DNA of 64,000 nucleotides from an uncultured Pseudomonadales bacterium (GTDB taxonomy: Bacteria; Patescibacteriota; Microgenomatia; UBA1400; PJMF01): the NCBI GenBank assembly GCA_964625685.1, contig CAZVBO010000002.1:55440-119439 (forward strand). The letters run 5' to 3'. Each line of letters starts with the position of its first letter. Position 1 is the first letter of the stretch. Shown in pieces: positions 27,911-63,843 of this stretch. The translations under genes were made by a program, and so were the position numbers. The notes beneath the pieces were generated by a model. The model had not been told where the DNA came from. It saw nothing but the letters and a program-made list of their open reading frames with translations, and did no database searches.

Positions 27911-28090
27911 ACATCCAGATGTTTTCGCTCCCAAGCAACTGAATCTTGTACTGATCCTAGTACAGGAGAAAAACCAAGCGAGCTGAAACAGAGTGGATGT
28001 TTTTTTTTATAAAATTATGAAAAAGTGTAAGCAAAGTATCAATAATAAGAAAAAGGTTTAACTAAACCCCCGTTCGCTGCGGGGGTTTTT
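27911..28090 (+). repeat. Copy A of a ~175-bp structured intergenic element
   Basis: Near-identical to 30754..30926 from gttttcgctcccaagcaactgaa through gcgggggttttt, with a few substitutions and short indels. It contains a long-range stem (acatcca/tggatgt), an inner hairpin (27945-27966), a T9 run, an A/T-rich spacer and a GC hairpin. Confidence 0.85.
28064..28090 (+). terminator. GC-rich hairpin + T5 (terminator/attenuator) 16 nt upstream of the 28106 ATG
   Basis: aaa-cccccg-ttcgctg-cggggg-ttttt. It sits inside repeat copy A, immediately before RBS GAGGGAG and the start codon. Confidence 0.7.
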
Positions 28091-28105
28091 GATAGAGGGA
28101 GAAAA

Positions 28106-30753: not shown

Positions 30754-30926
30754 AAACATCTCGTTTTCGCTCCCAAGCAACTGAACCCTGTACTTTAGTA
30801 CAGGCGAAAAACCAAGCGAGCTAAAACAGAGTGGATGTTTTTTTTATAAAATTATGAAAAAGTGTAAGCAAAGTATCAATAATAGAAAAAGGTTTAACTA
30901 AACCCCCGTTCGCTGCGGGGGTTTTT
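30754..30926 (+). repeat. Copy B of the ~175-bp structured intergenic element
   Basis: See copy A. The outer stem is re-formed with a different 5' arm (aaacatc/gatgttt). The inner hairpin cctgtact..agtacagg carries a change that turns a G-U pair into a G-C pair relative to copy A. Confidence 0.85.
30900..30926 (+). terminator. GC-rich hairpin + T5 (terminator/attenuator) 13 nt upstream of the 30939 ATG
   Basis: The hairpin cccccg-ttcgctg-cggggg-ttttt is identical to the one in copy A. Confidence 0.7.
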
Positions 30927-30938
30927 AGTAAAGAAAAA

Positions 30939-49169: not shown

Positions 49170-49214
49170 TTAAAACAGAAAGCTCTATGCCGAAATCTAC
49201 TAATCCGAAAAAAA

Positions 49215-49400: not shown

Positions 49401-49541
49401 GGCGGTATAATACCTCCCATATGTCACTCTCAATAGCAATAGAGGGGTAGCTAATAGACATGGGATTCCCTTCGAGTTTACTATCAAGCTTCCCAAACCA
49501 AGAAAAGCACGAAAGATAACAAAGAGGGACGAATTAGGTCG

Positions 49542-49581
49542 TATAATATGGACGAAAGCTAAATAGTCGACTTATCTACTT
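49542..49581 (+). promoter_or_regulatory. TATAAT box plus AGTCGACTTATCTACTT motif abutting the 49582 ATG
   Basis: tataat at 49542-49547. The 12-mer acttatctactt at 49570-49581 recurs at 52967-52978 and, reverse-complemented, at 62162-62173. No Shine-Dalgarno sequence is visible. Confidence 0.45.
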
Positions 49582-50334
49582 ATGAATAGGGAAATAATAA
49601 TAAAAAAAATAAAAGCTGTTGGATTTTTCGATTTTACTAATTGGGTTCAAAATAACAAAGAGCTTACAATCGCTCTAATTATTGTTTTTATAATATTTAT
49701 TGATATTTCTAATCTAGACGCTTCTTTTCACAAGGCTTTTTGTTTATCTCTAACAATATTACCAACATCAGTTGTTTGCCCAGATTTTTATGATATTCCT
49801 ATTTGGTCTTTTTTTGAAGTTGCCGGTGTAATAGCGACTGTTGTTGTTGCACTTTGGTCAGTAAATATTGGATTGAAACAAGCGAATAAGCAAGAAAAAA
49901 GTGCACAGGAAATCAAAATGGACCAGGACATGCCAATTATTTTTTTGAATCCTGAACCACAGCCGAAGTTACACAAAAATGGTGAAGTGTGTCTAGAGCT
50001 TATGAATGTTGGTAAGGGGATTGCCAAAGATGTATATGTATATATTGAAGACATTTTGGTTGAAGGAAATTTTTCAATGCTCACCGCCTCACCTGATAAT
50101 TTATCTGAACTAAAGATAAAATTTATTGCTTCTGATTCTTCACCTGAAAGGCAAAAGGCTATAGCACAAAAAATTCAACATTTTTCAGAAAAAAAGGATT
50201 TGCAAATGAAAATTACCTACTCTGACATTCACGGCCGATCATTTGTTACAGATCAAATAATATTTGAAAAAAACCAAGTTGGCGACTACATGCACAACAG
50301 GGGAAAGTGGTCGTTCCGAAAGGTTCAGTCATGA
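49582..50334 (+). CDS. Hypothetical membrane protein (2-3 N-terminal TM helices, beta-rich C-terminal domain)
   Basis: 250-aa ORF with hydrophobic segments LTIALIIVFIIFIDI and FFEVAGVIATVVVALWSV. ATGA-coupled to the next gene. Confidence 0.5.
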   Translation: MNREIIIKKIKAVGFFDFTNWVQNNKELTIALIIVFIIFIDISNLDASFHKAFCLSLTILPTSVVCPDFYDIPIWSFFEVAGVIATVVVALWSVNIGLKQANKQEKSAQEIKMDQDMPIIFLNPEPQPKLHKNGEVCLELMNVGKGIAKDVYVYIEDILVEGNFSMLTASPDNLSELKIKFIASDSSPERQKAIAQKIQHFSEKKDLQMKITYSDIHGRSFVTDQIIFEKNQVGDYMHNRGKWSFRKVQS

Positions 50335-51095
50335 ACACCTTCCTCCAATTAGCAAAACATATTCTTGAACAAGTTGGTCAACCTCTTCATTACAAAGAAA
50401 TCACTCAAAAAGCCATAGAGCAGGGCCTTCAAACAGAAGGGGCAACTCCTTGGGCCACCATGAATGCTCAAATCGCCACTGACATCAAAAAGAACGGTGA
50501 AGATTCACTCTTTTATCGAAGTGAGCCAGGTTTTTATGGTCTCAATCAAGAAGGTGTGCCTAAAGTGGCTGTTTCAGAAGTAAAGGCCAAGATTACCGGT
50601 GCCTTGCATAAAGTCACCTCTGACCTCAACACTAAGCAAAAAGGCGATATTGCCGAAGCCAGAGTGGCAGAACTGATTACTTTGTATGGTGATGAGGGTC
50701 TTTCTTGTTACCGTCCAATTAGTGATGACGAAGGCATAGATATTATTGTCAAAAAAAGAGGTGATCTCGATGTAGCTTATGTTCAGGTCAAATCAACCTT
50801 TGGCAATGGCTCTGATCGTTTTGTGTGCAGTGTCAAAGAGGACAAAATCGTCAACAAAAGAAGAATGCTGATGGTCTTTGTGTACTTTGATTTGACTGAC
50901 GGTGATATTCATGAGCATGTTTTTTGTGTGCCAGCATCTGAATTTTTGAAGCTCACTCACAATGAAAATAAAAAGCCAGGTCATCGAGTTTTTACGGTCA
51001 GCCTCAATAGTCCAGACAAATCAAAATATGCCAAGTATTTGATCGAAAAAAGAGAATTGGCTAATAAAATTCTTGAAATAATGAATGAAACATAA
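50331..51095 (+). CDS. HARE-HTH domain fused to a PD-(D/E)xK-like nuclease domain
   Basis: The N-terminal FLQLAKHILEQVGQPLHYKEITQKAIEQGL..TPWATMNAQIATDIKK....FYRSEPGFYGL fits the HARE-HTH (RpoE-delta N-terminal-like) pattern. The C-terminal E..(n)..DDEGIDIIV..(n)..VQVKS fits a D...(D/E/Q)xK restriction-endonuclease-like core. Confidence 0.55.
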   Translation: MNTFLQLAKHILEQVGQPLHYKEITQKAIEQGLQTEGATPWATMNAQIATDIKKNGEDSLFYRSEPGFYGLNQEGVPKVAVSEVKAKITGALHKVTSDLNTKQKGDIAEARVAELITLYGDEGLSCYRPISDDEGIDIIVKKRGDLDVAYVQVKSTFGNGSDRFVCSVKEDKIVNKRRMLMVFVYFDLTDGDIHEHVFCVPASEFLKLTHNENKKPGHRVFTVSLNSPDKSKYAKYLIEKRELANKILEIMNET

Positions 51096-52608
51096 AGCAC
51101 ACCTAACTGCATCTGATTTATACAACTACATTCAGTGTCCTCATCGTGTATGGCGTGATATATACGGTCCTCAACAAGAAAAACTCAAAGAAACAAATCC
51201 ATTTGTAGAAATGCTCTGGGAAAAGGGTGTTCAGCACGAAAAAGAAGTGTTGGGCAGGATGGGGGAGTTAGTTGATTTGGGAAAAGGGGACCAACAAGAG
51301 CGTATCCAAGCTACCAAAAAGGCGATGGATGATGGCGTGGACTTACTTTATCAGCCAGTAATAGTTCATGAAAATCTTTTAGGTATTCCGGACTTTTTGA
51401 AAAAGTTAGATGACGGCACGTATATGGCCGTTGATGTGAAGAGTGGTAGGGGCTTTGAAGGCACAGATGATGATACTTCTGAAAATGGTCCTAAGCTCAA
51501 AAAACACTACGCTGTTCAGTTGGCTTTATATACAGAAATTTTAGAAAAGAACGGATTTAGCAATGGCCACAGACAGGCAATTATTTATGATATTGAACAC
51601 AAAGAAGTGTTATATGAATTGGACCGCCAAATTGGCGTGCGGGACCAAAGAAGCTATTGGCAATATTACCAGTGGCTCAAAGTTGAAGTTTGGAATTTGA
51701 TCTCAAATCAAAAAAGCAATGACCCTGCAATGGCGGGAATTTGCAAACTTTGTCCGTGGTACAACAGTTGCAGTTCGTGGGTCAAAGCTAACGATGACAC
51801 CACTGGCTTATTCTACGTTGGCAGAAGTGTGAGAGACACTTTGAGAAGTGATATTGGTTTGACAACTATTCACGATGCTCAAAACATTGATGTGAATGAT
51901 CTCATGGCAGAGAAGGCTAAGGACAAGCAGTTTTTACAAAGAATTGGAGAGAAAACACTTGAGAAGATCAAGATTAGAGCTGAGATTATGGCTAATAAAT
52001 TGCCACCAGTTCTTTATGATGAATTAGATCTGCCAGATATGGAATATGAGCTTTTCTTTGATATTGAGGATGATCCAACTCAAGCATTTGTTTATTTGCA
52101 TGGTGTCTACGAAAGAACCTCAAAAGGGGAGCGGTTTATTCCATTTGTGGCTTCAAGCGTGACACCAGAAGCAGAGGCTCAAGCTTGGCAAGAGTTTTGG
52201 AATTATATTCGTTCACTGCCACAGGATGATTTTGCCTTGTATTACTATTCTCACCATGAAGAGACAACTTACAAGAAAATGGCTGATCTCTATCCGCACG
52301 TTGCTACAAGAGAAGATGTTGAGTGGCTATATCAAGATTCAAGAGCGATAGATTTGTACAGGGTCATCAGTAAATCAACTGATTGGCCTGTTGGCAGTTA
52401 TTCTCTCAAGAGTATTGCCAAGTATTTAGGTTTCAGTTGGCGTGACAAGACACCATCAGGGGCACTTTCTATCCAGTGGTATAACGGCTATCTAAAAACA
52501 GGTGATCAGGCTATTTTGGAGCGTATTTTGCTCTATAACGAGGATGATTGTATTGCCACTTTGGTGATCAAAGATGCCTTGATGAAAATGGTCCCAACTA
52601 ATTCTTAG
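51085..52608 (+). CDS. TM0106-type RecB/Cas4-like nuclease fused to an RNase-H-like (YprB-type) exonuclease domain
   Basis: LTASDLYNYIQCPHRVW, DVKSGRG, QLALYTEIL and CKLCPWYNSC form a Cas4-like PD-(D/E)xK core with a 4-Cys cluster. FFDIEDDP, YYYSHHEET and LLYNEDDC form an RNase-H-like DEDD-type pattern. It overlaps the upstream gene by 11 nt. Confidence 0.7.
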   Translation: MKHKAHLTASDLYNYIQCPHRVWRDIYGPQQEKLKETNPFVEMLWEKGVQHEKEVLGRMGELVDLGKGDQQERIQATKKAMDDGVDLLYQPVIVHENLLGIPDFLKKLDDGTYMAVDVKSGRGFEGTDDDTSENGPKLKKHYAVQLALYTEILEKNGFSNGHRQAIIYDIEHKEVLYELDRQIGVRDQRSYWQYYQWLKVEVWNLISNQKSNDPAMAGICKLCPWYNSCSSWVKANDDTTGLFYVGRSVRDTLRSDIGLTTIHDAQNIDVNDLMAEKAKDKQFLQRIGEKTLEKIKIRAEIMANKLPPVLYDELDLPDMEYELFFDIEDDPTQAFVYLHGVYERTSKGERFIPFVASSVTPEAEAQAWQEFWNYIRSLPQDDFALYYYSHHEETTYKKMADLYPHVATREDVEWLYQDSRAIDLYRVISKSTDWPVGSYSLKSIAKYLGFSWRDKTPSGALSIQWYNGYLKTGDQAILERILLYNEDDCIATLVIKDALMKMVPTNS

Positions 52609-52644
52609 CTTGCAACTTTTCTACATTTGTCCCTAATATGAAGC

Positions 52645-52958: not shown

Positions 52959-52978
52959 TATAATCTACTTATCTACTT
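52959..52978 (+). promoter_or_regulatory. Putative hsdR promoter: TATAAT immediately followed by the shared CTACTTATCTACTT motif
   Basis: tataat at 52959-52964 and the 12-mer acttatctactt at 52967-52978, 34 nt upstream of the hsdR ATG. Confidence 0.45.
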
Positions 52979-53011
52979 TTAGTAAGAATTCAGTCGAGAG
53001 AACACTGCCTT

Positions 53012-55408
53012 ATGGACAAATCACAACTATCTGAACGAGACATATGTACCAAATTTATTACGCCAGCAGTACAGCAGGCCGGTTGGGACGTTGATTCACA
53101 AATCCGTGAAGAAGTCAGTTTCACAAAGGGTCGCATCATTGTTAGAGATAAGGTGATTGCCAGAGGTAAACCAAAAAGAGCAGATTACATTCTTTACTAT
53201 AAAGAAAATTTTCCAATTGCCTTGATTGAAGCCAAGGACAACAAGCACTCAGTGGGTGATGGCATGCAACAGGGCCTTGAGTATGCTGAAACCTTGGATA
53301 TTCCTTTTGTGTTTAGCTCAAATGGAGATGCTTTCATAGCTCATGACAGAACTGGTATGTCAGCTGATACGGAAAAGCAGATTCGACTAGATGAATTCCC
53401 AAGCCCTCAAGAGCTGTATCAGCGATACTTGCGTTGGAAAAACATTGATATGGTCGAGGAGCAGATTCTGACCACAGACTACTACTATGACGCTCGTGGC
53501 AAATCACCTCGTTATTATCAACAAATTGCCATCAATAGAACTATTGAAGCAGTGGCCAATGATCAAAAGCGAATCATGTTGGTTATGGCCACCGGTACAG
53601 GGAAAACATACACAGCCTTTCAGATTATGTGGCGTTTGTGGAAGTCAGGGGCCAAAAAGAGAATTTTGTTCTTAGCGGACCGCAACATCCTTATTGATCA
53701 AGCAAAGACCAATGATTTCATTCCATTTGGTGACAAAATGACCAAGATCAGTAATCGCCAGATTGATAAGTCATATGAACTCTACCTTTCCTTGTATCAA
53801 GCTGTGACGGGCAATGAGGAAGAAAAGAACATCTACAAACAATTCAGTCCTGATTTCTTTGATTTGATTATTGTGGATGAGTGTCATCGAGGTAGTGCCA
53901 GAGCAGATTCAGCGTGGAGAGAGATTCTTGAATACTTTGACCATGCTACCCAAATCGGTTTGACTGCCACCCCAAAAGAAACAAAAGATGTCTCAAATAT
54001 TGATTACTTTGGTGAGCCGGTTTACACCTATTCACTCAAGCAAGGTATTGAGGATGGCTTTTTGGCACCTTATAAAGTGGTCCGTTACACCATTGATCGT
54101 GATGTTGAAGGCTACCGTCCAGAGCCTCATAAAAGAGATATTTATGGGGAAGAAGTTCCTGATGAGGTGTATTATGGCCATGATTTTGATCGCAAGCTGA
54201 TTATCGATGACCGAACCAAACTGGTAGCTAAGAAAGTAACTGAATACTTAGAAGCTAATGAAGCATTTGCCAAGACAATCGTGTTCTGTATCGACATCGA
54301 ACATGCCGAAAGAATGAGAAGAGCTTTGATCAATGAAAACCAAGAACGCTACCAAGAGAACTCTAAATACATCATGCGAATTACTGGTGACAATGAGCAG
54401 GGAAAAGCAGAATTAGACGGTTTTATTGATCCTGAGAGCAAATATCCAGTCATTGTGACTACTTCTAAGTTATTGACCACAGGTGTTGATGCTCAAACTT
54501 GTAAGTTAGTGGTCCTTGATGCTCCGATCAAATCAATGACCGAGTTCAAACAAATTGTAGGACGTGGTACGAGACTTCGTGAGGATCATGACAAGTTCTA
54601 CTTCACAATTATGGATTTCCGTAATGCTACGGATAACTTTGCAGATCCTGATTTTGATGGCGAGCCAGTGCAAATTTATGAACCAGTTTTGCCAGCAAAA
54701 ATTGAAGGGGTCCAACCCGTCAAAACACAGTCTGTTTCAACCGATGAACTAGATATTTCAGAAGTTTTGTATGATCCACAGCGTGTTGATGCCATGACAC
54801 TGAGAGATTCAGCCGGTGAAGTGGGGTATCGAACTGGTGGAGTTCACAAATACCACCTCAATGATGTAGAAGTGATGGTCTCAAGTGAGAAAATTCAATT
54901 TTATGATGAGGGTGGCAAACTTGTTTCAGAGTCACTGGAAGAGTATTCAGCCAAAAACTTGAAGAGGCTCTATCCTGAGCTAGCCGATTTCCAACGAGCT
55001 TGGGCGGAAGCTGAAAACAAAACGGTCTTGATTCACAGTTTAGTTGAGAATGGCTTTTTTATTGATGAGCTTCTAGAAAAAGTTGATCCCGCATTAGATA
55101 TTTTTGATTTGGTTCTGAGCGTTGCGTATAAGCAAGAAGCAAGCATGACTCGGTCCCAAAGAGCTCAGCAAGTACGAGGAAGTGAATTTTTCAATCAATA
55201 TCAAGATACACAAAAAGAGCTATTGCTTGATCTTTTGAGTGTGTATGAACAAGAAGGTATTGTGGCAATTGAGGACGTTGAATTGCTTAGGGTTGAACCA
55301 TTCACCAAGTATGGATCACCGGTTGAGATACTTGGGACCATTTTTTCTGGAAGAAATGAATATTTATTAGCATTAGCAGATATGAAGAAGCACTTATACA
55401 AAGGTTAG
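53012..55408 (+). CDS. hsdR: Type I restriction enzyme, R subunit
   Basis: N-terminal nuclease motif (RADYILY ... ALIEAKD) and SF2 helicase motifs MATGTGKT, VDECHRG, LTATP and QIVGRGTR. Confidence 0.92.
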   Translation: MDKSQLSERDICTKFITPAVQQAGWDVDSQIREEVSFTKGRIIVRDKVIARGKPKRADYILYYKENFPIALIEAKDNKHSVGDGMQQGLEYAETLDIPFVFSSNGDAFIAHDRTGMSADTEKQIRLDEFPSPQELYQRYLRWKNIDMVEEQILTTDYYYDARGKSPRYYQQIAINRTIEAVANDQKRIMLVMATGTGKTYTAFQIMWRLWKSGAKKRILFLADRNILIDQAKTNDFIPFGDKMTKISNRQIDKSYELYLSLYQAVTGNEEEKNIYKQFSPDFFDLIIVDECHRGSARADSAWREILEYFDHATQIGLTATPKETKDVSNIDYFGEPVYTYSLKQGIEDGFLAPYKVVRYTIDRDVEGYRPEPHKRDIYGEEVPDEVYYGHDFDRKLIIDDRTKLVAKKVTEYLEANEAFAKTIVFCIDIEHAERMRRALINENQERYQENSKYIMRITGDNEQGKAELDGFIDPESKYPVIVTTSKLLTTGVDAQTCKLVVLDAPIKSMTEFKQIVGRGTRLREDHDKFYFTIMDFRNATDNFADPDFDGEPVQIYEPVLPAKIEGVQPVKTQSVSTDELDISEVLYDPQRVDAMTLRDSAGEVGYRTGGVHKYHLNDVEVMVSSEKIQFYDEGGKLVSESLEEYSAKNLKRLYPELADFQRAWAEAENKTVLIHSLVENGFFIDELLEKVDPALDIFDLVLSVAYKQEASMTRSQRAQQVRGSEFFNQYQDTQKELLLDLLSVYEQEGIVAIEDVELLRVEPFTKYGSPVEILGTIFSGRNEYLLALADMKKHLYKG

Positions 55409-55411
55409 ATT

Positions 55412-56845
55412 ATGGCACTTTCAACAAAGATCAAAACGATTCAAAACATCATGCGTCAAGACAGTGGTGTCGATGGTGATGCTCAGAGAATTTCGCAATT
55501 AGGCTGGTTGATATTCCTCAAGATTTTTGACGATCGTGAGCGAGAGCTTGAGATCATGAAAGGGGATTATGAATCACCAATGCCAGAAGAGTTGAGATGG
55601 CGAAATTGGGCATTGGACGAAGAAGGTATTACTGGTGATGAGTTATTGAACTTTGTAAACAATGACCTTTTCCCTAAGTTGAAGAACCTTGAAGTCAAAT
55701 CTACCGATGATAAAAAGGCACTTATTTTACGGTCCGTGTTTGAAGATGCTTTCAACTACATGAAGTCAGGGACCTTACTTCGTCAGGTAATCAACGAGCT
55801 GAATGATATTGACTTTGCTAGTTCAAATGACAGACATGTATTCAATGATGTGTATGAAAAAATCCTCAAGGACTTGCAGAGTGCCGGAAATGCCGGTGAG
55901 TTTTACACCCCTCGTGCAGTTACTCAATTTATTGTGGACATGGTGGATCCAAAGCTTGGCGAAAAAGTATTTGACCCCGCTTGTGGTACCGGTGGTTTTT
56001 TGACATCGGTAATTGAGCATGTTCGCAAGAATGAAGTCAAAACGGGTGAAGACAACGAAGCTTTGGCAAATTCAATATATGCAGTAGAAAAGAAACCACT
56101 GCCTCATTTGCTTTGTACAACCAATATGATTCTTCATGGTATTGATGATCCAAGCAATATTGTCAGAGGTAATTCATTGGTTCGTCCTTTGCGTGATTAC
56201 ACCGAAGATGATAGGGTCCATGTGATCGTGACTAATCCACCGTTTGGTGGGACCGAAGAAGATGGAATTGAACTTGGCTTTCCAAAGAAGTTCCAAACAA
56301 GGGAAACTGCTGATTTGTTTTTGGTCCTGATTATTCATTTACTCAAAGAGAATGGTCGAGTGGGTATAGTTTTGCCAGATGGTTCTTTATCTGGTGAAGG
56401 TGTCAAACAGAGAATCAGAGAGCATTTGCTCAATAAATGTAATTTACACACGATTATTCGTTTGCCAAACAGCGTCTTCAAGCCATATGCCACTGTTAGT
56501 ACTAATTTATTGTTTTTCTCAAAGGGTGAGCCAACCAAAGAAGTTTGGTATTACGAGCACCAACTTCCAGACGGATACAAAAGCTATTCAAAGACAAAAC
56601 CAATTCAACTAAGTGAATTTGATGTTATCAAAAAATGGTGGAGCAACAGAGAAGAAGGTCCTTTTTCATGGAAGGTTGGCATCAAAGATATTGAAGAAAA
56701 AGGTTTCAACTTAGATATCAAGAATCCAAATATCAAACGAAAGAAAATTGAACAATCACCAGAAGAAATCATTTCAGAGATTCGAGAGAATCAGAGTCAA
56801 ATTGATCAATTGTTGAGTGAGATTGAGGAACTAATCAAATCATGA
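55412..56845 (+). CDS. hsdM: Type I restriction-modification system, M subunit (N6-adenine methyltransferase)
   Basis: HsdM N-terminal domain (IMRQDSGVDGDAQRISQLGWLIFLKIFDD), motif I DPACGTGGFL and motif IV VTNPPFGG. Confidence 0.93.
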   Translation: MALSTKIKTIQNIMRQDSGVDGDAQRISQLGWLIFLKIFDDRERELEIMKGDYESPMPEELRWRNWALDEEGITGDELLNFVNNDLFPKLKNLEVKSTDDKKALILRSVFEDAFNYMKSGTLLRQVINELNDIDFASSNDRHVFNDVYEKILKDLQSAGNAGEFYTPRAVTQFIVDMVDPKLGEKVFDPACGTGGFLTSVIEHVRKNEVKTGEDNEALANSIYAVEKKPLPHLLCTTNMILHGIDDPSNIVRGNSLVRPLRDYTEDDRVHVIVTNPPFGGTEEDGIELGFPKKFQTRETADLFLVLIIHLLKENGRVGIVLPDGSLSGEGVKQRIREHLLNKCNLHTIIRLPNSVFKPYATVSTNLLFFSKGEPTKEVWYYEHQLPDGYKSYSKTKPIQLSEFDVIKKWWSNREEGPFSWKVGIKDIEEKGFNLDIKNPNIKRKKIEQSPEEIISEIRENQSQIDQLLSEIEELIKS

Positions 56846-58032
56846 GCTATACATTAGATGAACTATGCCATATAGAAAAAGGCAAAATTGGCATTACAAA
56901 AGCCGTTGATGGTGAATATCCATTAGTTACCACTGGTGAAGATTTTGGAACACACAATGAATACCATTTTGAAGGTCCTGCTGTATGTGTGCCACTAGTT
57001 TCTTCAACTGGCCACGGACACGCTAGCATCAAGAGATTGCACTATATTGAAGGAAAGTTTGCTTGTGGAAATATTTTGGCAGTACTGATTCCAAAGGATC
57101 CAAGTAAGTTGTCAGCGAAGTTTTTATACACCTATCTTACTGTTCACAAACAGGAAAAATTGGTGAGAAAAATGAAGGGGGCGGCTAATGTATCTTTGAC
57201 TTTGACAAATTTGAAAAAAGTGAAAATTGAGGACTTGCCTTCGCTGAAAGAACAGGAAAAAATATCTAGCATTTATTCGTCTATTGATAAATTTTCTTTG
57301 GAATTTTTAAAAAAAATTGAATTCAACAAAACAAGAACTAGTACTCTAAAAAATAAGGTTATTGATTTGGCTGTGTTTGGCCATTTTTTACCATATTCAA
57401 ATAATGATTATTCATTTTCAGATGATTTTGATCACTTAGTTCCAAACAAGTGGTCATTTTCTAGCTTAGAGGATATAGCAGAATTCATTGATTATAGAGG
57501 CAAGACTCCAAAAAAAGTTGATACTGGTATTAGGTTGGTCACTGCTAAAAATGTAAAGCTCGGATATTTTTCATATGAGCCAGCAGAATATATGGAATCT
57601 CATGCTTATGATGATTGGATGACAAGAGGGTTTCCTCAAAAGAATGATGTTTTATTTACCACAGAGGCCCCATTAGCTAATACATGTTTATACCCGTTTG
57701 AGCACACAGAGAAAATTGCTTTAGCACAGAGAATCATTACATTGCACCCATATAATGATAGTGATTATATAAAAAGCAGATATTTGTTTTATTGCTTATT
57801 AGCACCTTCAATAAGAAGAAAAATTCAGGCAAAAGCAACTGGTACGGCCGCTTTAGGAATTAGATCTAGTAGGCTAAAAAAAATTATTTTTCCAGTACCT
57901 TCTCAAGATGAGATGCTGAAAATTGTGAATTTTTTGGAAGTTTTCTTTGAGTTCATTGAACAAATTGGATCAAAGGTTTCAGACAATGAAGAAATCATCG
58001 ATAAACTAAAAAATCAATCTTACAAAGGATAG
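56842..58032 (+). CDS. hsdS: Type I restriction-modification system, S (specificity) subunit
   Basis: Two target-recognition halves separated by conserved spacers (LPSLKEQEKISSIY, then FPVPSQDEMLKIVNFL). ATGA overlap with hsdM. Confidence 0.85.
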   Translation: MSYTLDELCHIEKGKIGITKAVDGEYPLVTTGEDFGTHNEYHFEGPAVCVPLVSSTGHGHASIKRLHYIEGKFACGNILAVLIPKDPSKLSAKFLYTYLTVHKQEKLVRKMKGAANVSLTLTNLKKVKIEDLPSLKEQEKISSIYSSIDKFSLEFLKKIEFNKTRTSTLKNKVIDLAVFGHFLPYSNNDYSFSDDFDHLVPNKWSFSSLEDIAEFIDYRGKTPKKVDTGIRLVTAKNVKLGYFSYEPAEYMESHAYDDWMTRGFPQKNDVLFTTEAPLANTCLYPFEHTEKIALAQRIITLHPYNDSDYIKSRYLFYCLLAPSIRRKIQAKATGTAALGIRSSRLKKIIFPVPSQDEMLKIVNFLEVFFEFIEQIGSKVSDNEEIIDKLKNQSYKG

Positions 58033-58040
58033 TGACATAA

Positions 58041-61010
58041 ATGAAATCTGATTACTTCACCCCTGACGGCTATCTATCAGCTCAAAAAGTTCGAGATGTG
58101 CTCAAGAACGTTGAGTATGAGGGTAAAAAATTATCAGAGGAAAAGGTGGGGGACATAGTTGAACAATTTTGGTTTCAGGATTACTACTCCAATTTTATTT
58201 GTATCCCAGACGTTTTTGAGTTCCTTCAAGAGTATTTAGAAGAGTATGGGCCAGAAGTAAAGAGAATCGATTTCTATCGATACCACTTTTCAAAGGTTGT
58301 TACTGACGATAAAAAAAAGTCCAGCTTAGAGCTAATCTCTGTTGATTTTGAAACAAAGCAACGCAATGACATAAATCAAGACCTTTTGCAGGAAGTTCTT
58401 GATAAACATGAGATCACTAATATTTCATTTGAGTGGTTACTTGAGAAGAAGTTCATTTGGCAAATAGAAGATAAATTTGAATGGCGTCACCACACATATA
58501 CTGAGTTCTTTGCTTCTGAATACATCCTCAAGCAAAAAGAGCCGATCAAAGTTGTTGATGAGTTAGCAGTTTTGAATGTTGAAGCTGACAACTCAAAAAA
58601 CATCAAGCCTTCGTGGCATGGTGTGATCAAGTTTTTACTTCAAAGCGAAATTTCCCATGATGCGTTGAACTGGCTTATTGGATTGATCAAAGAAAACCCA
58701 CTCAATTTGAGTGAAGATCTGACAAACATCATCAGCATGTTTGCTCCTCACGATTTAGATGATTCTGAAAAATCAGAGGTTTTCAATATTATTTATGACA
58801 CCTATCAAGAAAGAATGGTTTGGTTACCGGTCTGGGCAAGAACAGGGTTGGCTAAGTTTTTTACAACCACACAGTTAGAGAAATTTGAAAAGCACTTAGA
58901 AGCTACTGATGATGAGGTCGAAACATATGTCCATCGTGGCAACGTGGTGGCAGTAGTGGGTGAATTGATTGAGATAGGAATTATTAGTGATAAAAAACAA
59001 ATTGGCTTATGGAAGGATAGATTTGTTGAGTACGCCTTGGATGAAAATGATAATGGGGTACTGCAAAGGCACAGTCTTCATGCTCTTAGGCAGTTCAAAG
59101 AAAAAGATGGCCAACTGATCCTCAAGCTAAGAAAAAACCTGAATTCGTCAGATACTTTGGTTCGAGATGCATTTATTCAGTACTGCTCAGAGTCGGCCCC
59201 AAATACAAAAGAGGCAATAGACGTTTTTGCTGATGCATATGGCGAAGGAATGTCTCGTGTGTATAGCAGACACGGTATGTATGAAATTTCTTCATTGGAA
59301 GGCTTCACATATCTAATCGACAAACTAATAGACAATAGCAATTTCTTACATGAGTTTATTGATTCTGAATCAATCTTTGATGGTGAAAGAAAAGATCCCG
59401 ATGCAGAGTTTGTTCAAAAGATTATTGACTCGGCGAGGTCAAATACAGGTTTTGCTAAAAAGTTGAGCGATCTATTGAAGGAGGTCATAAAGAATGACGA
59501 AATATACCAGGTAGAACGTTCATATTTTGTTAGAAATATTAGTTTATTTCTTTTTGATGACCGCGACAGAGGTATTGAGTTTATCAAAGACGTAATTAGT
59601 GAAGAAGACATTACAAGGCATTTTGTTCATAACTTTTTTGACATACTTCCGGAAGTTTTGACGTCTGAGAATTGGCAAGAAATATTTGAAATTTTAGAAG
59701 CAACGGATATTGAATATGTTGATCGCCACCTTGAGAGAGTTTCGTATGGTCTTAGGTTTAGAAAAGAAGCTGGTGGTAAAGAACTATTTGAAGAGATTGC
59801 CCAAAAAAGAGGGTATAAGATCGAGAAACCAAGAGATTATGAGAAAGAAGAGAAAAAGAGGCAGGATGAGCTCTACAAAGAATTCAAATTCAAGATAGAA
59901 CCTGACAAGGGTCGGTTCATGGGAGATGTCTTTGAATATTACCTCAATAATGCAGAGGTTATTGAAGAGAGATGGTCTGATTATGAAGAAGAGCGAATGC
60001 TGTTCTTGGCTTACGAAGATGGTATCAAGAGGTTAGACCCAAGAGATTTTAGAGTCACATTTGAAGAGAAGAAAAAACGAGGAGGACGTTTTAGGTGGTC
60101 CAGTCAGGCCGCTTTTTATGGCGAAATGATCAAGGTTGTTCAGCGGATGAGACCTGATTTACTGGAAGAACCAGCTGTAAGACAACACATTATCGATTTC
60201 ACTCCGTATTGCTATTCTGATGACTACAAAGTGGTCCATGAGCTAATTACTGAGATTGAACCAAGTGATATTAGTTGGCTCGTTGAGCTCTACAAAAATG
60301 AAGATGATGATCGCCGGTATTTGGTCCCTGAATCATTTATTTATTTTCTTGAGAGCTTATTGGACCACAAACAAAATGTCACTAGTGCCATTCCAACACT
60401 TAGAACATTTATTCTTGATGAAAACATCTCGGATTGGGTAAGTCGAAGTGCTTTGGAGTTGCTAGGCAAAATTGAAGCATCAAGTAAGGATTACCAAGAT
60501 TTTCTTCAAGAGGTATTTGAAAAAACTGAATACGACAAAGTAAAAGAGGAAGCAAATAGGCAATTGATTGTTTTATTTGAAGAAGAAGAAGCGATTCAAT
60601 GGAGATTTGAGCAAATCAAAGCAAAAGTTTCTCCATTCAAGAGAGAAGAAGGTGTTCACTCGGTTGGTGAACTGGAAAGTGAGCTTGATTCAAGATCATT
60701 TATATCACCTCTTTGTGAGGTAAAGACAGAAAAAATACTCAAAGATTTTTTGAAGCTTTTTGAATATGTATTAGTTAAGTATGAAACGGATGAGGGATAT
60801 TCTGCCTACCTTGAATATGTTTGGGCAGCAATTATTAGATTTGTTTATAAATTTGACGAAGAACAGTTCTTTGACTTATACGCTAGATTGAAAAAATATG
60901 TTGAGGAGTCAGAGATTTCTAGTAAGAAGAGGCCTTACCTTGAGTATTCATTGCAGAAAACCAAAACAGATTTTATAAATAAAATGGCACTTGAAGGGAG
61001 AAATGAGTAG
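58041..61010 (+). CDS. Large uncharacterised all-alpha protein (989 aa) with a STAND-type winged-helix signature but no NTPase motifs
   Basis: It starts 8 nt after the hsdS stop. FEWRHHTYTEFFASEYIL resembles the F-x-H-x-x-F-x-E-[FY]-x-A signature that follows NACHT/STAND NTPase modules. The remaining ~800 aa look like helical repeats. No GxxxxGK[ST] occurs anywhere. Confidence 0.5.
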   Translation: MKSDYFTPDGYLSAQKVRDVLKNVEYEGKKLSEEKVGDIVEQFWFQDYYSNFICIPDVFEFLQEYLEEYGPEVKRIDFYRYHFSKVVTDDKKKSSLELISVDFETKQRNDINQDLLQEVLDKHEITNISFEWLLEKKFIWQIEDKFEWRHHTYTEFFASEYILKQKEPIKVVDELAVLNVEADNSKNIKPSWHGVIKFLLQSEISHDALNWLIGLIKENPLNLSEDLTNIISMFAPHDLDDSEKSEVFNIIYDTYQERMVWLPVWARTGLAKFFTTTQLEKFEKHLEATDDEVETYVHRGNVVAVVGELIEIGIISDKKQIGLWKDRFVEYALDENDNGVLQRHSLHALRQFKEKDGQLILKLRKNLNSSDTLVRDAFIQYCSESAPNTKEAIDVFADAYGEGMSRVYSRHGMYEISSLEGFTYLIDKLIDNSNFLHEFIDSESIFDGERKDPDAEFVQKIIDSARSNTGFAKKLSDLLKEVIKNDEIYQVERSYFVRNISLFLFDDRDRGIEFIKDVISEEDITRHFVHNFFDILPEVLTSENWQEIFEILEATDIEYVDRHLERVSYGLRFRKEAGGKELFEEIAQKRGYKIEKPRDYEKEEKKRQDELYKEFKFKIEPDKGRFMGDVFEYYLNNAEVIEERWSDYEEERMLFLAYEDGIKRLDPRDFRVTFEEKKKRGGRFRWSSQAAFYGEMIKVVQRMRPDLLEEPAVRQHIIDFTPYCYSDDYKVVHELITEIEPSDISWLVELYKNEDDDRRYLVPESFIYFLESLLDHKQNVTSAIPTLRTFILDENISDWVSRSALELLGKIEASSKDYQDFLQEVFEKTEYDKVKEEANRQLIVLFEEEEAIQWRFEQIKAKVSPFKREEGVHSVGELESELDSRSFISPLCEVKTEKILKDFLKLFEYVLVKYETDEGYSAYLEYVWAAIIRFVYKFDEEQFFDLYARLKKYVEESEISSKKRPYLEYSLQKTKTDFINKMALEGRNE

Positions 61011-61833
61011 TTCTTCCTTACCAATCCATGATGATTTTTCAAACAATCCTTTTGGTTTGCCTGATCCACCGACACCTAGGATTCCAACTGATCCATTAGA
61101 AAAAATTATCTATGCCTTTGAAGCTTGTCGTGGTGGAATACAACAAAGTCAGTTTCCTAATTACTCAGTAGATTCAATAATATGGTGTTTCAGGGCATTT
61201 GAATTGGTAAACAAGCTCAATGGGGAAGTGACTCAAAATGGTAAGAATCAGATTGAGAAATGGAAAAAACAGAAAAATATAGATTCAATGGATCAGGTGA
61301 CGGCCCTTTTTATAAGGAAGAAAGCAGAATTACCTGAATTTGAACTCGAAATAGAAAATCACTTTGATAACAAACATGTATATGTTGATTACTTTAGACA
61401 TACTTCACCGACTGATAAACTCCATTGGTTGAATTTTCTAATATATTTGGGATTTATAGACAATTCTGACTATAAACTCATTGATGTGTGTGACAGAAAT
61501 GGAAAAAGATATAAGTGGACTGAATCAGGTAAACTTTTTATTACAAAAATTAGAGAAGCAATTTCTCCAAAGGAAATCTTTTCAGATGGAGTAATCACTG
61601 AAGAACTAAACTGGCACGAAAAGACAAGAAAGTTTTTGTCAAAGATTCCCAAGTGGTTTTGGTCAATTCCTATCTTGATGATTCTACTAATTTTGCTTTT
61701 TTTTGCCAAACATTGGCTTCCCGTATTTTGTCCGATTGTAACTAAAGACAAAAGTACTTATCAGGTATTCAAATCGATAGAAATTGGACCTATCAATGGT
61801 TCTGAATTATGTGAGCCAATTCCGGAAAACTAG
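61003..61833 (+). CDS. Uncharacterised protein with a single C-terminal TM helix
   Basis: The ATG at 61003 overlaps the stop of the 989-aa gene (atgagtag). The alternative start is the TTG at 60991 used by the ORF track. TM segment WFWSIPILMILLILLFFAKHWLPVF lies near the C-terminus. Confidence 0.5.
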   Translation: MSSSSLPIHDDFSNNPFGLPDPPTPRIPTDPLEKIIYAFEACRGGIQQSQFPNYSVDSIIWCFRAFELVNKLNGEVTQNGKNQIEKWKKQKNIDSMDQVTALFIRKKAELPEFELEIENHFDNKHVYVDYFRHTSPTDKLHWLNFLIYLGFIDNSDYKLIDVCDRNGKRYKWTESGKLFITKIREAISPKEIFSDGVITEELNWHEKTRKFLSKIPKWFWSIPILMILLILLFFAKHWLPVFCPIVTKDKSTYQVFKSIEIGPINGSELCEPIPEN

Positions 61834-62120
61834 AGTAATTCAAGAATCTTATCTGCAACTTCCTCACCATCATTCCATTTCAGTTTGATTTTGTGAGTTT
61901 TACCGCCCGTTGTTTCAATCAAAACCCATTTGAAACCCTTGATATTGAAAGGGTTGATCTTTGAACTGCCGTCAGCGTTGGTAGAGGTGATGACGTTGGC
62001 GATTTGTTTTGTTGGAATGGAGATTTTATTGAAGCTGAGCTTTTTTCCGATAACCACTTTTGCAGGGTAGATCTCAATCCAATCAAGGACTAATTGTTTC
62101 TTTAGTAGTTTATTTTCCAT
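61830..62120 (-). CDS. Small hypothetical protein (96 aa, beta-rich)
   Basis: ORF convergent with the R-M operon. The two stop codons overlap in CTAG at 61830-61833. No family recognised. Confidence 0.4.
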   Translation of the reverse strand: MENKLLKKQLVLDWIEIYPAKVVIGKKLSFNKISIPTKQIANVITSTNADGSSKINPFNIKGFKWVLIETTGGKTHKIKLKWNDGEEVADKILELL

Positions 62121-62162
62121 AGTAGGTTGCTTTCTATATTGCTTTGAATTATAGATCTAAAA

Positions 62163-62203
62163 AGTAGATAAGTCTACTAATAGTGCGTTTATCTTTAGTG
62201 CGT
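62163..62203. promoter_or_regulatory. Candidate operator cluster in the divergent intergenic region
   Basis: Palindrome AGTAGA-taag-TCTACT (62163-62178), followed by direct repeats TAGTGCGT at 62181-62188 and 62196-62203. Confidence 0.5.
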
Positions 62204-62217
62204 AAGGGTCTGTAATC

Positions 62218-62448
62218 GTGGATATGCTAAGCAAATCCCGTTTCACTCAAATCGTAGGTCAAAATATTCGAAAAGTTCGTTTAGATAAGGGGATGACTCA
62301 AGATGAGCTTTCTCACGAATGTGGGTTTTACAGAACCTATATCAACTTAGTTGAAACTGCTCACAGGACCCCATCTTCATTCACTTTGTTCAAAATAGCA
62401 AAGGCTCTAAAGGTCTCGGTTGATGACCTTTATCCAACCACGGTTTAG
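62218..62448 (+). CDS. XRE-family helix-turn-helix regulator (76 aa; controller/C-protein-like size)
   Basis: IRKVRLDKGMTQDELSHECGFYRTYINLVETAHRTPSSFTLFKIAKAL is a classic Cro/C1-type HTH. The start is the GTG at 62218 or the ATG at 62224. Confidence 0.8.
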   Translation: MDMLSKSRFTQIVGQNIRKVRLDKGMTQDELSHECGFYRTYINLVETAHRTPSSFTLFKIAKALKVSVDDLYPTTV

Positions 62449-63380: not shown

Positions 63381-63430
63381 ACTAGTTGCCGTTTTTATCA
63401 AAAAAGTTTTTTTCACCATAATCATGCTCA

Positions 63431-63556
63431 ATGAGAGATATAGAACTTCTCTACGAGCAAAGCACAGAAATGACACCAGAAGACTTGGATGTCATTTTTG
63501 ACATGCTTTTTGAGATGGTTTGGGAATCTCTTCAAAAAAAGTCGGCAGAAGCATAG
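63431..63556 (+). CDS. Possible small acidic protein (41 aa)
   Basis: Manual translation gives MRDIELLYEQSTEMTPEDLDVIFDMLFEMVWESLQKKSAEA. It is below the track's size cutoff and has no RBS evidence. Confidence 0.2.
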   Translation: MRDIELLYEQSTEMTPEDLDVIFDMLFEMVWESLQKKSAEA

Positions 63557-63843
63557 CCCTTGTGTTGAATAGACGACTCAAAATAGCTATTCAGAGGTAA
63601 GGGACTCGATGGCAAGACACCTATACTAGATGACTGTATTTTGACTGACAAGGTTTGGTAAGCACTGATAAAACCCTTTGACCATGACAAGAATCATGGG
63701 GGTGGCACACAAGACTGTTAGAACACACGCACAAATACATCTAGGCAGGATGAGGAGTCCAGAAGAGGGAAATACAACTAGGGGGCCGAAGGCCCTAAGA
63801 GAAAAGTCGACTAGTAAATAGTAATAAAAAAAGAAAGGAAAGT

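What the first reader, a model, noticed from the sequence alone, without database searches (positions are those of the whole stretch)
62121..62217. Shared 12-mer/palindrome in front of three island transcription units, next to a C-protein-sized XRE regulator
Seen in sequence:
- The exact 12-mer ACTTATCTACTT occurs at 49570-49581, abutting the ATG of the nuclease-trio operon.
- It occurs again at 52967-52978, immediately after a TATAAT box upstream of hsdR.
- It occurs reverse-complemented at 62162-62173, in the divergent region between the 96-aa gene and the XRE gene.
- At the third site it forms the palindrome AGTAGA-taag-TCTACT and is followed by two TAGTGCGT direct repeats spaced 15 bp apart.
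- At the first site it forms the near-palindrome AGTAGA-taag-TCGACT.

Three exact copies of a 12-mer, all in promoter-proximal positions within 13 kb, are very unlikely by chance.

Established knowledge: R-M systems are often timed by small XRE-type controller (C) proteins that bind palindromic C-boxes.

Inference: the 76-aa HTH protein may co-regulate the nuclease trio, hsdRMS plus passengers, and itself. That would tie the island's modules into one regulon.
Basis: partly seen in the sequence, partly recalled or inferred. Interest (0 to 1): 0.6.

Follow-up and report, generated by a model that had tools for sequence, protein, structure and literature searches.

The report
Controller-type regulator of a mobile defence island
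A small DNA-binding protein of the kind that times restriction enzymes sits in a 16-kb mobile defence island of an ultra-small (Patescibacteria) bacterium, and pieces of its binding region recur before three island operons, so it may regulate them together, though this is untested.

Summary
ACTTATCTACTT occurs exactly three times, always in intergenic DNA pointing at the next gene. "Very unlikely by chance" is overstated: 19 different 12-mers occur three or more times in this window (about 12 expected). Only this one is intergenic at all three copies (corrected p about 0.01).

The regulator is 74 aa. By sequence and operator layout it belongs to the PvuII-type controller (C) protein family. 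Its conserved operators are the two "TAGTGCGT" boxes, OL at 62174-62188 and OR at 62189-62203, 15 bp apart. OL lies 48-51 nt before the ATG in 21 of 23 Patescibacteria loci scanned. The 12-mer lies just outside OL.

The family travels with large serine recombinases and phage genes, not Type II restriction-modification (R-M) systems. Here it sits in a roughly 16.4-kb island inserted at the start of ychF.

Links to the other promoters:
- hsdR: the 12-mer's end forms a C-box palindrome, TACT-N3-AGTA.
- Nuclease operon: an 18/20 copy of "12-mer plus OL left half" and a 13/15 OR-like box.
- 96-aa gene: OL overlaps the -35.

Control by this protein is plausible (about 0.5) but unproven.

The parts
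49418..49426 (+). Left copy of the 9-bp direct repeat CATATGTCA that bounds the island (attL core). The right copy lies about 1.8 kb beyond the window end, on the ATG of ychF.
   Evidence: The same 9-mer is at L045:13234, where recombinase-side sequence joins the ychF start. The conserved island block begins at 49427.
49505..49519 (-). OR-like box TTATCTTTCGTGCTT (13/15 identical to the regulator's OR), just upstream of the inferred -35 of the nuclease-operon promoter.
   Evidence: It is the only match in the window with up to 2 mismatches. The half carrying GTGC is not conserved in L042.
49543..49548 (+). TATAAT, the inferred -10 of the nuclease-operon promoter.
   Evidence: It is conserved in L039-L043. 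The transcription start is not mapped.
49562..49581 (+). Site 1. The reverse complement AAGTAGATAAGTCGACTATT matches 18/20 of "12-mer plus left half of OL". It contains the 12-mer (49570-49581) and the near-palindrome AGTCGA-CTTA-TCTACT, and it abuts the ATG.
   Evidence: L042/L043, whose coding DNA is only about 70% identical, keep AGTCAACTTATCTACT-ATG.
49582..52608 (+). Nuclease operon: a 250-aa protein of unknown function, a HARE-HTH/PD-(D/E)XK protein, and a TM0106-type RecB-like nuclease with an RNase_H_2 domain.
52959..52964 (+). TATAAT, the inferred -10 of the hsdR promoter.
   Evidence: It is invariant in L001, L007 and L038.
52967..52978 (+). Site 2 copy of the 12-mer. Here it is part of a tandem repeat, ATCTACTT ATCTACTT (52963-52978).
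52974..52984 (+). C-box-type palindrome TACT-TTT-AGTA overlapping the 3' end of the 12-mer. It is the candidate single operator over the hsdR transcription start.
   Evidence: It scores 9.4 bits on the family OL matrix, p about 0.018 for this intergenic region. L038 has TACT-AAT-AGTA at 12.8 bits, a score only 2 of 128,000 window positions reach.
53012..58032 (+). Type I restriction-modification operon hsdR-hsdM-hsdS.
61830..62120 (-). 96-aa gene of unknown function, transcribed divergently from the regulator. It travels with the regulator and the recombinase in L026 (59% identical), L048, L049 and L053.
62148..62176 (-). Divergent promoter of the 96-aa gene: TAGACT, 17 nt, TATAAT. Its -35 overlaps OL by 3 nt. 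The 12-mer covers the last 3 nt of the -35 and 9 nt of the spacer.
   Evidence: 10 of 12 consensus positions. The same geometry is seen in L026.
62162..62173 (-). Site 3 copy of the 12-mer. The palindrome AGTAGA-TAAG-TCTACT spans 62163-62178.
   Evidence: The centre varies in L049-L052 (ACTAATCTACT). The outer arm is absent in L026 and L053.
62174..62188 (+). OL, the distal C-box CTACTAATAGTGCGT (TACT-AAT-AGTG plus spacer).
   Evidence: It scores 24 bits on the family matrix. It starts 48-51 nt before the ATG in 21 of the 23 family loci scanned.
62189..62203 (+). OR, the proximal and weaker C-box TTATCTTTAGTGCGT, 15 bp after OL. It overlaps the inferred -35 of the regulator's own promoter.
   Evidence: The 15-bp centre-to-centre spacing is the one reported for PvuII-type C-boxes (PMC2647307).
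62211..62216 (+). TGTAAT, a -10-like hexamer 7 nt before the ATG. This implies a leaderless or nearly leaderless mRNA.
   Evidence: Most family members have an nAnAAT hexamer ending 6-8 nt before the ATG (my reading of the sequences).
62224..62448 (+). The 74-aa HTH_3 regulator of the controller (C) protein family.
63805..63812 (+). AGTCGACT within AAAAGTCGACTAGTAAATAGTAAT, about 30 nt before a 61-aa gene (ATG 63844) that heads the 61-aa / 64-aa / serine-recombinase operon. It shares TAGTCGACTT with site 1.
   Evidence: The block is conserved in L001 and L007 while upstream DNA diverges. The gene order comes from L045.

Best explanation
**Shown by comparison.**
- The 74-aa protein is a PvuII-type controller (C) family regulator.
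- It is carried by a roughly 16.4-kb large-serine-recombinase island inserted at the 5' end of ychF in a Patescibacteria genome.
- Its operators are two C-boxes 15 bp apart: OL at 62174-62188 and OR at 62189-62203.
- They sit at a fixed distance before an apparently leaderless start codon.

**Inferred from the family paradigm.**
- A dimer on OL helps RNA polymerase at the regulator's own weak promoter.
- A second dimer on OR shuts that promoter off.
- OL occupancy also covers the -35 of the divergent 96-aa promoter.

**Inferred for the shared element.**
- The 11-12-mer is not a new operator type. It is a fragment of this control region.
- It carries the family's best-conserved half-site, ATCTACT.
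- It recurs at repressor-type positions in two cargo promoters.
- At hsdR it pairs with an inverted AGTA to give a complete single C-box over the transcription start. This is analogous to the OM operator of Esp1396I.
- At the nuclease operon it comes with a copy of the OL left half and an OR-like box just upstream of the inferred -35.
- The regulator therefore most likely damps hsdRMS and the 96-aa gene, and perhaps the nuclease operon.
For: **Family membership.**
- The top solved relatives are C.BclI (3.7e-8), C.Esp1396I and C.AhdI.
- It matches the PADLOC Control_protein profile at 1.1e-12.
- The recognition-helix region FYRTYIN is invariant in 38 sequences.

**Operator.**
- C-TACT-AAT-AGTG-CGTT-GTAC-TAT-TGTG is conserved upstream of the regulator gene.
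- OL scores 13.6-24 bits (at least 15 in 20 loci) and starts 48-51 nt before the ATG in 21 of 23 family loci scanned.
- The PvuII wild-type operator is gcTACTcatAGTCtgtaGATTcaaAGTC, with 15-bp spacing (PMC2647307).
- A short operator-to-ATG distance and leaderless mRNA are typical of the family (PMC2632904).

**A second OL-type operator elsewhere in the family.**
- L026 has one before its recombinase operon, at 19.4 bits.

**hsdR.**
- It is the only island intergenic region with an OL-type hit above chance (p about 0.018).
- The L038 variant reaches 12.8 bits, equal to the window's own OR.

**Substitutions.**
- Both substitutions seen inside the element create ACTAAT, which is the OL box plus spacer. 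They are site 3 in L049 and site 2 in L038.

**Nuclease operon.**
- An 18/20 match to "12-mer plus OL left half", with 0 expected.
- The only OR match in the window with up to 2 mismatches.
- The two lie in the same order and orientation as in the regulator's own region.

**No other candidate.**
- No other recognisable sequence-specific regulator is encoded in the island.
Against: - Sites 1 and 3 offer only half-sites in an outward-facing arrangement. A dimer that binds OL cannot use them in the same way.
- The best OL-matrix score in the site 1 intergenic region is 3.2 bits, which is at chance level.
- A half-site matrix is not discriminating: 93 window positions score as well as the 11-mer.
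- No other family locus shows extra copies of its own distal arm at cargo promoters.
- L026 and L053 lack the 11-mer altogether.
- Identity across the spacer of the 12-mer is more than an operator needs. It fits common descent just as well.
- Whole intergenic regions are 95-100% conserved among relatives, so conservation is not specific to the motif.
- The GTGC half of the OR-like box is not conserved in L042.
Confidence: 0.5

Rival explanations
1. The 11-12-mer is bound by a different island-encoded protein, read as tandem ACTT boxes 8 bp apart. The leading candidate is the 61-aa protein that heads the recombinase operon. It would coordinate the three promoters and its own.
For: - Every site can be read as two 8-bp units: TCGACTTA/TCTACTTA, TCTACTTA/TCTACTTT and TAGACTTA/TCTACTTT.
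- The 61-aa gene has related ACTW boxes upstream and shares TAGTCGACTT with site 1.
- The 61-aa gene is seen wherever that region is assembled in lineages with the 11-mer at site 3 (window, L001, L048). L007 conserves its upstream block and ATG. L026 and L053 lack both the gene and the 11-mer.
- By eye its sequence looks like a ribbon-helix-helix protein, a class that binds short tandem boxes. That reading rests on my own knowledge.
Against: - The 61-aa protein has no Pfam, PHROG or PDB match.
- A single-sequence AlphaFold model gives two helices and no strand.
- The co-occurrence involves closely related lineages only, so it may simply reflect descent.
- This reading does not explain the C-box at hsdR or the OR-like box at the nuclease promoter.
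Confidence: 0.2
2. The copies are relics of shared ancestry: short pieces of one control region reused when cargo modules were assembled. They have no present regulatory role. They persist because the whole promoter regions are conserved.
For: - Sites 1 and 3 share 18/20, and an OR-like relic lies in the same order. This looks like a rearranged copy.
- The cargo is modular and gets swapped. A KAP NTPase replaces the HEAT-repeat protein in L001. An IS element is inserted in L049. Gene 1 has a different N-terminus right after site 1 in L039.
- Triple 12-mers are common in this window.
- Intergenic conservation is uniform rather than centred on the motif.
Against: - Outside the 12-20 nt the flanks show no significant similarity.
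- All three copies sit at repressor-type positions and point towards the gene.
- The element survives in L042/L043, where coding DNA is only about 70% identical.
Confidence: 0.2
3. RNA-level control. A rightward transcript carrying AAGUAGAUAAGU from site 3 pairs with the 5' leaders of the nuclease and hsdR mRNAs. The complementarity is perfect over 13-14 nt, and at site 1 it lies directly before the AUG.
For: Sites 1 and 2 are on the sense strand inside the inferred leaders, and site 3 is their reverse complement.
Against: - If the regulator's mRNA is leaderless, as inferred, site 3 lies upstream of its start.
- The 96-aa promoter fires away from site 3.
- No convincing rightward promoter lies upstream of site 3.
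- There is no Rfam match in the island.
Confidence: 0.04
4. The palindromes are crossover sites for the island's serine recombinase. That would allow inversion between sites 1 and 3 or deletion between sites 1 and 2.
For: The 16-bp dyads have a non-palindromic centre, and sites 1 and 3 are in inverted orientation. A serine recombinase is encoded nearby.
Against: - The island's junction repeat is CATATGTCA, which is unrelated to the motif.
- Every assembled relative of the island, from several sequencing projects, has the same gene order.
Confidence: 0.03

Closest known systems
PvuII-type controller (C) proteins of Type II R-M systems (C.PvuII, C.Esp1396I, C.AhdI, C.BclI)
   Same: - A small HTH_3 protein with an xRTY recognition helix.
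- Two imperfect palindromes of the form kACT-N3-AGTs, 15 bp apart, with a conserved spacer between them.
- The operator ends about 20 nt before the ATG, which implies a leaderless mRNA.
- Esp1396I also has a separate single operator, OM, at a second promoter (PMC3488213). The hsdR box is the analogue of that.
   Different: - The gene is not next to a restriction endonuclease gene and no Type II R-M system is present.
- The family sits in serine-recombinase or phage-like elements of Patescibacteria.
- The box sequences are TACT/AGTG with spacer CGTT, not GACT/AGTC with TGTA or CGTG.
- The candidate target is a Type I operon, and the box position implies repression rather than delayed activation.
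C-protein homologues in phage-related loci (Sorokin et al. 2009, PMC2632904)
   Same: That survey already found many C-family genes with predicted double-box sites in loci that have phage genes and no R-M genes. For motif 3, all 18 loci were phage-related. This family fits that class.
   Different: This is a new lineage, in Patescibacteria. OL stays within a 4-nt range before the ATG. The gene has a conserved divergent partner promoter, and here there is a defence cargo.
RptR, repressor of a Type I R-M / DarTG defence island in E. coli (PMC12255303)
   Same: A small regulator encoded in a defence island that represses a promoter driving a Type I R-M system through repeated short sites.
   Different: - RptR is encoded inside the operon it represses and binds TAGCTA repeats in a single promoter.
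- RptR did not appear among the PDB sequence matches of the 74-aa protein.
CI/Cro-type switch regions of temperate phages and integrative elements
   Same: An XRE-type repressor with divergent promoters and tandem operators, located next to an integrase or recombinase module.
   Different: No Cro-like partner is recognisable. The divergent gene varies between relatives and is of unknown function. The operator layout is that of a C-box, with a 15-bp period.

Membership tests
Controller (C) proteins, PvuII-like | A single-domain HTH_3 protein of about 70-100 aa | tested here: met
   74 aa. HTH_3 at 1.7e-12 covers residues 17-71 of the 76-aa ORF.
Controller (C) proteins, PvuII-like | Closest characterised relatives are C proteins, and the recognition helix carries the xRTY motif | tested here: met
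   The best PDB hits are C.BclI, C.Esp1396I and C.AhdI. PADLOC Control_protein scores 1.1e-12. FYRTYIN is invariant. The HRTY and DRTY classes are described in PMC2647307.
Controller (C) proteins, PvuII-like | Two C-boxes (kACT-N3-AGTs) upstream of its own gene, 15 bp centre to centre, with a conserved spacer between operators | tested here: met
   Seen in the upstream alignment. OL is found 48-51 nt before the ATG in 21 of 23 loci scanned. In the window, OL and OR are at 62174-62203.
Controller (C) proteins, PvuII-like | The operator ends about 17-18 nt before the start codon, and the mRNA is leaderless | tested here: inconclusive
   The distance is 20 nt. A -10-like nAnAAT hexamer ends 6-8 nt before the ATG in most members (my reading). 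The geometry fits, but no transcription start has been mapped.
Controller (C) proteins, PvuII-like | The gene lies immediately upstream of, and is co-transcribed with, a Type II restriction endonuclease gene | tested here: not met
   The downstream gene varies (257, 189 or 122 aa) and has no family match. The neighbours are serine recombinases and phage genes. The only R-M system here is Type I and lies 9 kb away.
Controller (C) proteins, PvuII-like | A concentration-dependent switch from activation to repression through cooperative OL/OR binding | not testable with these tools
   This needs EMSA, footprinting and reporter titration.
Large-serine-recombinase integrative element | A recombinase with Resolvase, Recombinase and Zn_ribbon_recom domains at one end of the element | tested here: met
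   L045:11601-13304 (567 aa) is from the same strain and lies just right of the window.
Large-serine-recombinase integrative element | Short identical junction sequences, with the element interrupting a conserved backbone site | tested here: met
   CATATGTCA is at 49418 and at L045:13234, where it overlaps the ychF ATG. Housekeeping genes lie on both sides. No empty site was found.
Large-serine-recombinase integrative element | A conserved core with variable cargo among relatives | tested here: met
   The core of recombinase, regulator and 96-aa gene is shared. The cargo is Type I R-M plus nucleases (window, L001, L048, L049), an AAA_15 ATPase (L053), or unknown (L026).

The most novel reading that the evidence does not exclude
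A PvuII-type controller protein has been recruited as the master regulator of a whole integrative defence island in Patescibacteria. It would hold a Type I R-M operon, a three-gene nuclease operon and its divergent partner gene under one switch. It would do so through fragments of its own C-box region copied into each cargo promoter. I know of no described controller-family protein that governs a Type I system, and my literature search found none. My search also found no published regulatory circuit for a mobile element of the candidate phyla radiation.
Probability: 0.35. Interest if true: 0.6.

Novelty: new variant of a known kind. Interest (0 to 1): 0.42.

Why it matters
- Controller proteins are the textbook timing device of Type II R-M systems. 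Regulation of Type I systems and of multi-system defence islands is only starting to be described (RptR in 2025; BrxR/CapW).
- Here the evidence for a bona fide C-box regulator is strong. It sits in a mobile island of an uncultivated, reduced-genome lineage.
- Pieces of its operator lie at a Type I promoter and at a nuclease-operon promoter.
- If binding is confirmed, the controller family would reach beyond Type II systems. It would also show how island cargo comes under core control by copying operator fragments.
- It would also give a simple protein-DNA pair for testing gene regulation in Patescibacteria in a heterologous host.
- If binding is not confirmed, what remains is an ordinary autoregulated repressor of an integrative element.

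Tried and rejected
- **Generic motif or REP element.** Rejected. The 11-mer is at chance level in 349 kb of other Patescibacteria loci. With up to 2 mismatches it is at chance level in the window.
- **Duplicated promoters.** Rejected. The flanks beyond the element show no significant similarity, and the element sits at different positions relative to each -10.
- **Promoter element.** Rejected. No usable -10 follows sites 1 or 2 in the register used at site 3.
- **att sites.** Rejected. The junction repeat is CATATGTCA.
- **Extra copies of a locus's own operator at cargo genes in other family loci.**
  - Only L026 (before its recombinase operon) and L013 (a duplicated control region) showed one.
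  - The hits in L011 and L017 are inside coding regions.
- **Half-site matrix.** Not discriminating.
- **Hexamer enrichment (TCTACT, ATCTAC).** None found.
- **A possible fourth copy at 52615 (2 mismatches).** It is not conserved in L038, so it is probably chance.
- **The 61-aa protein as a ribbon-helix-helix protein.** No support from Pfam, PHROGs, PDB or a single-sequence model.
- **IMG/VR.** It holds no relative of the regulator and only a weak match to the 61-aa protein.
- **Rfam and tRNA scans.** Empty.
- **Empty integration site.** None among 12 contigs carrying the flanking gene.
- **Metagenome scan with the 90-aa protein.** It returned one locus, L038.

Full report
**1. The observation**

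ACTTATCTACTT occurs exactly three times in the window: 49570-49581 (+), 52967-52978 (+) and 62162-62173 (-).

- Site 1 abuts the ATG of a 250-aa gene.
- Site 2 starts 2 nt after a TATAAT and ends 33 nt before the hsdR ATG.
- Site 3 lies between a 96-aa gene on the - strand and the XRE gene.
- The palindrome AGTAGA-TAAG-TCTACT (62163-62178), the near-palindrome at site 1, and the two TAGTGCGT repeats with a 15-bp period are all present.
- The regulator is 74 aa and starts at ATG 62224. All 37 homologues aligned begin their conserved sequence at the same Met-Leu.

**2. How unlikely is it?**

The tool's expectation of zero applies to this particular word.

- The window contains 19 different 12-mers with three or more copies.
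- A second-order Markov model gives 11.9 on average.
- The window is about 92% coding. This 12-mer is the only one with all three copies intergenic.
- That gives a corrected p of about 0.01. It falls further because all copies point at the downstream gene.
- It also falls because the identity extends: 14 nt between sites 2 and 3 and 18/20 between sites 1 and 3.

With mismatches allowed there is no excess, and short sub-words are not enriched. The element is therefore real but discrete. The flanks are otherwise unrelated.

**3. What the regulator is**

- It is a single HTH_3 domain.
- Its best solved relatives are the controller proteins C.BclI, C.Esp1396I and C.AhdI.
- Its best defence-library match is Control_protein.
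- The 39 homologues found are all short. The few that carry an organism name, and most of the genome records, are Patescibacteria.
- The recognition-helix region FYRTYIN is invariant in 38 sequences. The family should therefore read one kind of DNA site.

**4. Its operator**

I compared the DNA upstream of 23 family members. One block is conserved: AAATC-TACT-AAT-AGTG-CGTT-GTAC-TAT-TGTG-CGA.

- A matrix built from the first box, excluding the window's lineage, places it 48-51 nt before the ATG in 21 of the 23 loci.
- In the window that box is OL (62174-62188, 24 bits).
- OR is a weaker second box 15 bp later (62189-62203, 12.7 bits).

This is the layout of PvuII-type C-boxes.

- The consensus is GACTnnnAGTC(N4)GACTnnnAGTC.
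- The wild-type PvuII sequence is gcTACTcatAGTCtgtaGATTcaaAGTC.
- The centre-to-centre distance is 15 bp (PMC2647307; PMC3488213).
- A short, fixed distance to a leaderless start is also typical (PMC2632904).
- Most members here have an nAnAAT hexamer ending 6-8 nt before the ATG. In the window it is TGTAAT at 62211-62216. This is my reading.

**5. Where the 12-mer sits**

- It lies immediately outside OL.
- On the - strand the region holds a good promoter for the 96-aa gene: TAGACT, 17 nt, TATAAT (62176..62148).
- The 12-mer covers the end of that -35 and half of the spacer.
- The inner arm of the palindrome (TCTACT) is simply the left box of OL and is conserved throughout the family.
- The outer arm is not conserved.
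  - It is present in the window's lineage (L001, L007, L048) and in a few others.
  - It has a changed centre in L049-L052.
  - It is absent in L026 and L053, which share the same core of recombinase, regulator and 96-aa gene but carry other cargo.
- The two arms face outwards, whereas the two halves of OL face inwards. A dimer that binds OL cannot bind the palindrome in the same way. This last point is inference.

**6. Genomic context**

The family does not accompany Type II R-M systems. Its neighbours are large serine recombinases, terminase, ParB-methyltransferases and variable small genes.

- In this strain the genes to the right of the window are a 61-aa gene, a 64-aa gene, a 567-aa serine recombinase, and then ychF and ribosomal protein genes.
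- CATATGTCA occurs at 49418 and again exactly on the ychF ATG. This delimits an island of about 16.4 kb.
- The cargo is modular.
  - A KAP NTPase replaces the HEAT-repeat protein in L001.
  - An IS element interrupts the cargo in L049.
  - In L039 the first nuclease-operon gene has a different N-terminus that begins just after site 1.

**7. Do the other two promoters carry the regulator's sites?**

*hsdR.*
- The last five bases of the 12-mer begin TACT-TTT-AGTA (52974-52984). This is a perfect C-box-type palindrome just after the -10.
- Among the island's intergenic regions, only this one has an OL-matrix hit above chance (9.4 bits, p about 0.018).
- In L038 the adjacent 90-aa protein is 79% identical. 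Its intergenic region is almost unchanged except that TTT becomes AAT.
- The result, TCTACTAATAGT, is identical to the OL core. It scores 12.8 bits, as good as the window's own OR.

*Nuclease operon.*
- No complete box is present; the best score is 3.2 bits.
- The reverse complement of 49562-49581 matches 18 of 20 bases of "12-mer plus left half of OL".
- The only match to OR in the window with up to 2 mismatches lies at 49505-49519, just upstream of the inferred -35. Its order and orientation match the regulator's own region.
- The whole 75-nt promoter block is about 95% conserved in L042/L043, where coding DNA is about 70% identical. The GTGC half of the OR-like box is not conserved there.

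*Substitutions.* The two substitutions seen inside the element, at site 3 in L049 and site 2 in L038, both create ACTAAT. That is OL's box plus spacer.

**8. Most likely mechanism**

The regulator autoregulates through OL and OR in the manner of the C family. At the same time it covers the -35 of the 96-aa promoter.

Fragments of this control region have been copied into the cargo promoters.

- At hsdR the fragment forms a complete single operator over the transcription start. This is comparable to OM of Esp1396I, so repression of hsdRMS is likely.
- At the nuclease operon the evidence shows relatedness rather than a competent site, so control there is uncertain.

I put about 0.5 on the regulator acting at two or more of the three promoters.

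**9. Rival explanations**

- Another small island protein reads the tandem ACTT boxes. The 61-aa protein is the candidate, but nothing beyond visual resemblance supports a DNA-binding fold.
- The copies are relics of module assembly with no current function.
- Antisense RNA pairing.
- Recombination sites. This is contradicted by the unrelated junction repeat and by the constant gene order in all assemblies.

**10. Comparison with known systems and novelty**

- By sequence and operator architecture this is a member of the PvuII-like controller family.
- It fails the one contextual criterion, linkage to a Type II endonuclease. C-family genes in phage-type loci were already noted by Sorokin et al..
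- Regulators of defence islands that include Type I systems are also known, for example RptR.
- What is new is the lineage, the tight link to serine-recombinase islands, and the candidate extension to a Type I operon through copied operator fragments.
- I rate it a new variant of a known kind, of moderate interest. It rests on binding experiments that cannot be done here.

Noticed in passing
window 49418-49426, and L045:13234-13242 (about 1.8 kb beyond the window end): The 9-bp direct repeat CATATGTCA bounds a roughly 16.4-kb island. The right copy contains the ATG of ychF, so the island is inserted at the very start of that gene. In L039 and L040 the island's left end is preceded by a relic of a recombinase 3' end plus 19 nt of ychF. 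This suggests tandem accretion of elements at this site.
   Followed up: partly
window 27921-28097 and 30763-30933: Two copies of a roughly 175-nt, largely intergenic sequence, about 94% identical and 2.84 kb apart in direct orientation. Each ends in a GC-rich hairpin followed by a T run (CCCCCGTTCGCTGCGGGGGTTTTT).
   Followed up: no
L026:887-901: The closest relative with other cargo has a second OL-type box, CTATCAATTGTGCGT (19.4 bits). It abuts a TATATAAT in front of the 189-aa / serine-recombinase operon. In that lineage the regulator probably controls the recombinase. The window has no such box before its own recombinase operon.
   Followed up: partly
L013:8984-9030: A second, nearly identical copy of the whole OL/OR control region lies about 950 bp upstream of the regulator's own copy.
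   Followed up: no
window 63381-63843: A 460-nt gap with no convincing gene. Its last 90 nt are conserved in L001 and L007 while the rest diverges. That part includes the hairpin GGGGGCCGAAGGCCCT and AAAAGTCGACTAGTAAATAGTAAT, which holds the tandem repeat TAGTAAA/TAGTAAT. There is no Rfam match.
   Followed up: partly
window 58041-61833 compared with L001:6962-9610, L048 and L049: The gene after hsdS is swapped between relatives. It is a 989-aa HEAT-repeat protein plus a 280-aa protein here, an 882-aa KAP-family NTPase in L001, and a HEAT-repeat gene interrupted by an rve-type IS in L049. In L048 a 151-aa gene is inserted between the 96-aa promoter and the 95-aa gene.
   Followed up: partly
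window 49588-49868 compared with L039:4662-4752: The first gene of the nuclease operon has an unrelated, shorter N-terminal region in the L039-L041 lineage (185 aa against 250 aa). The promoter block up to ATGAAT, and the rest of the operon, are 92-97% identical. The recombination breakpoint lies directly after site 1.
   Followed up: no
window 49193-49202: A perfect match to the family's consensus left half-operator, AAATCTACTA. It lies in backbone intergenic DNA between the bactofilin-like gene and the PspC-domain gene, about 225 nt outside the island. No right half was looked for in detail.
   Followed up: no
window 61684-61698: CTACTAATTTTGCTT, the second-best OL-matrix hit in the first scan of the window (15.7 bits; 12.4 bits with the background used). 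It lies inside the 3' part of the 280-aa gene, about 500 bp from the regulator, and overlaps a promoter-like site on the - strand (TTGGCA, 17 nt, TAGAAT).
   Followed up: no
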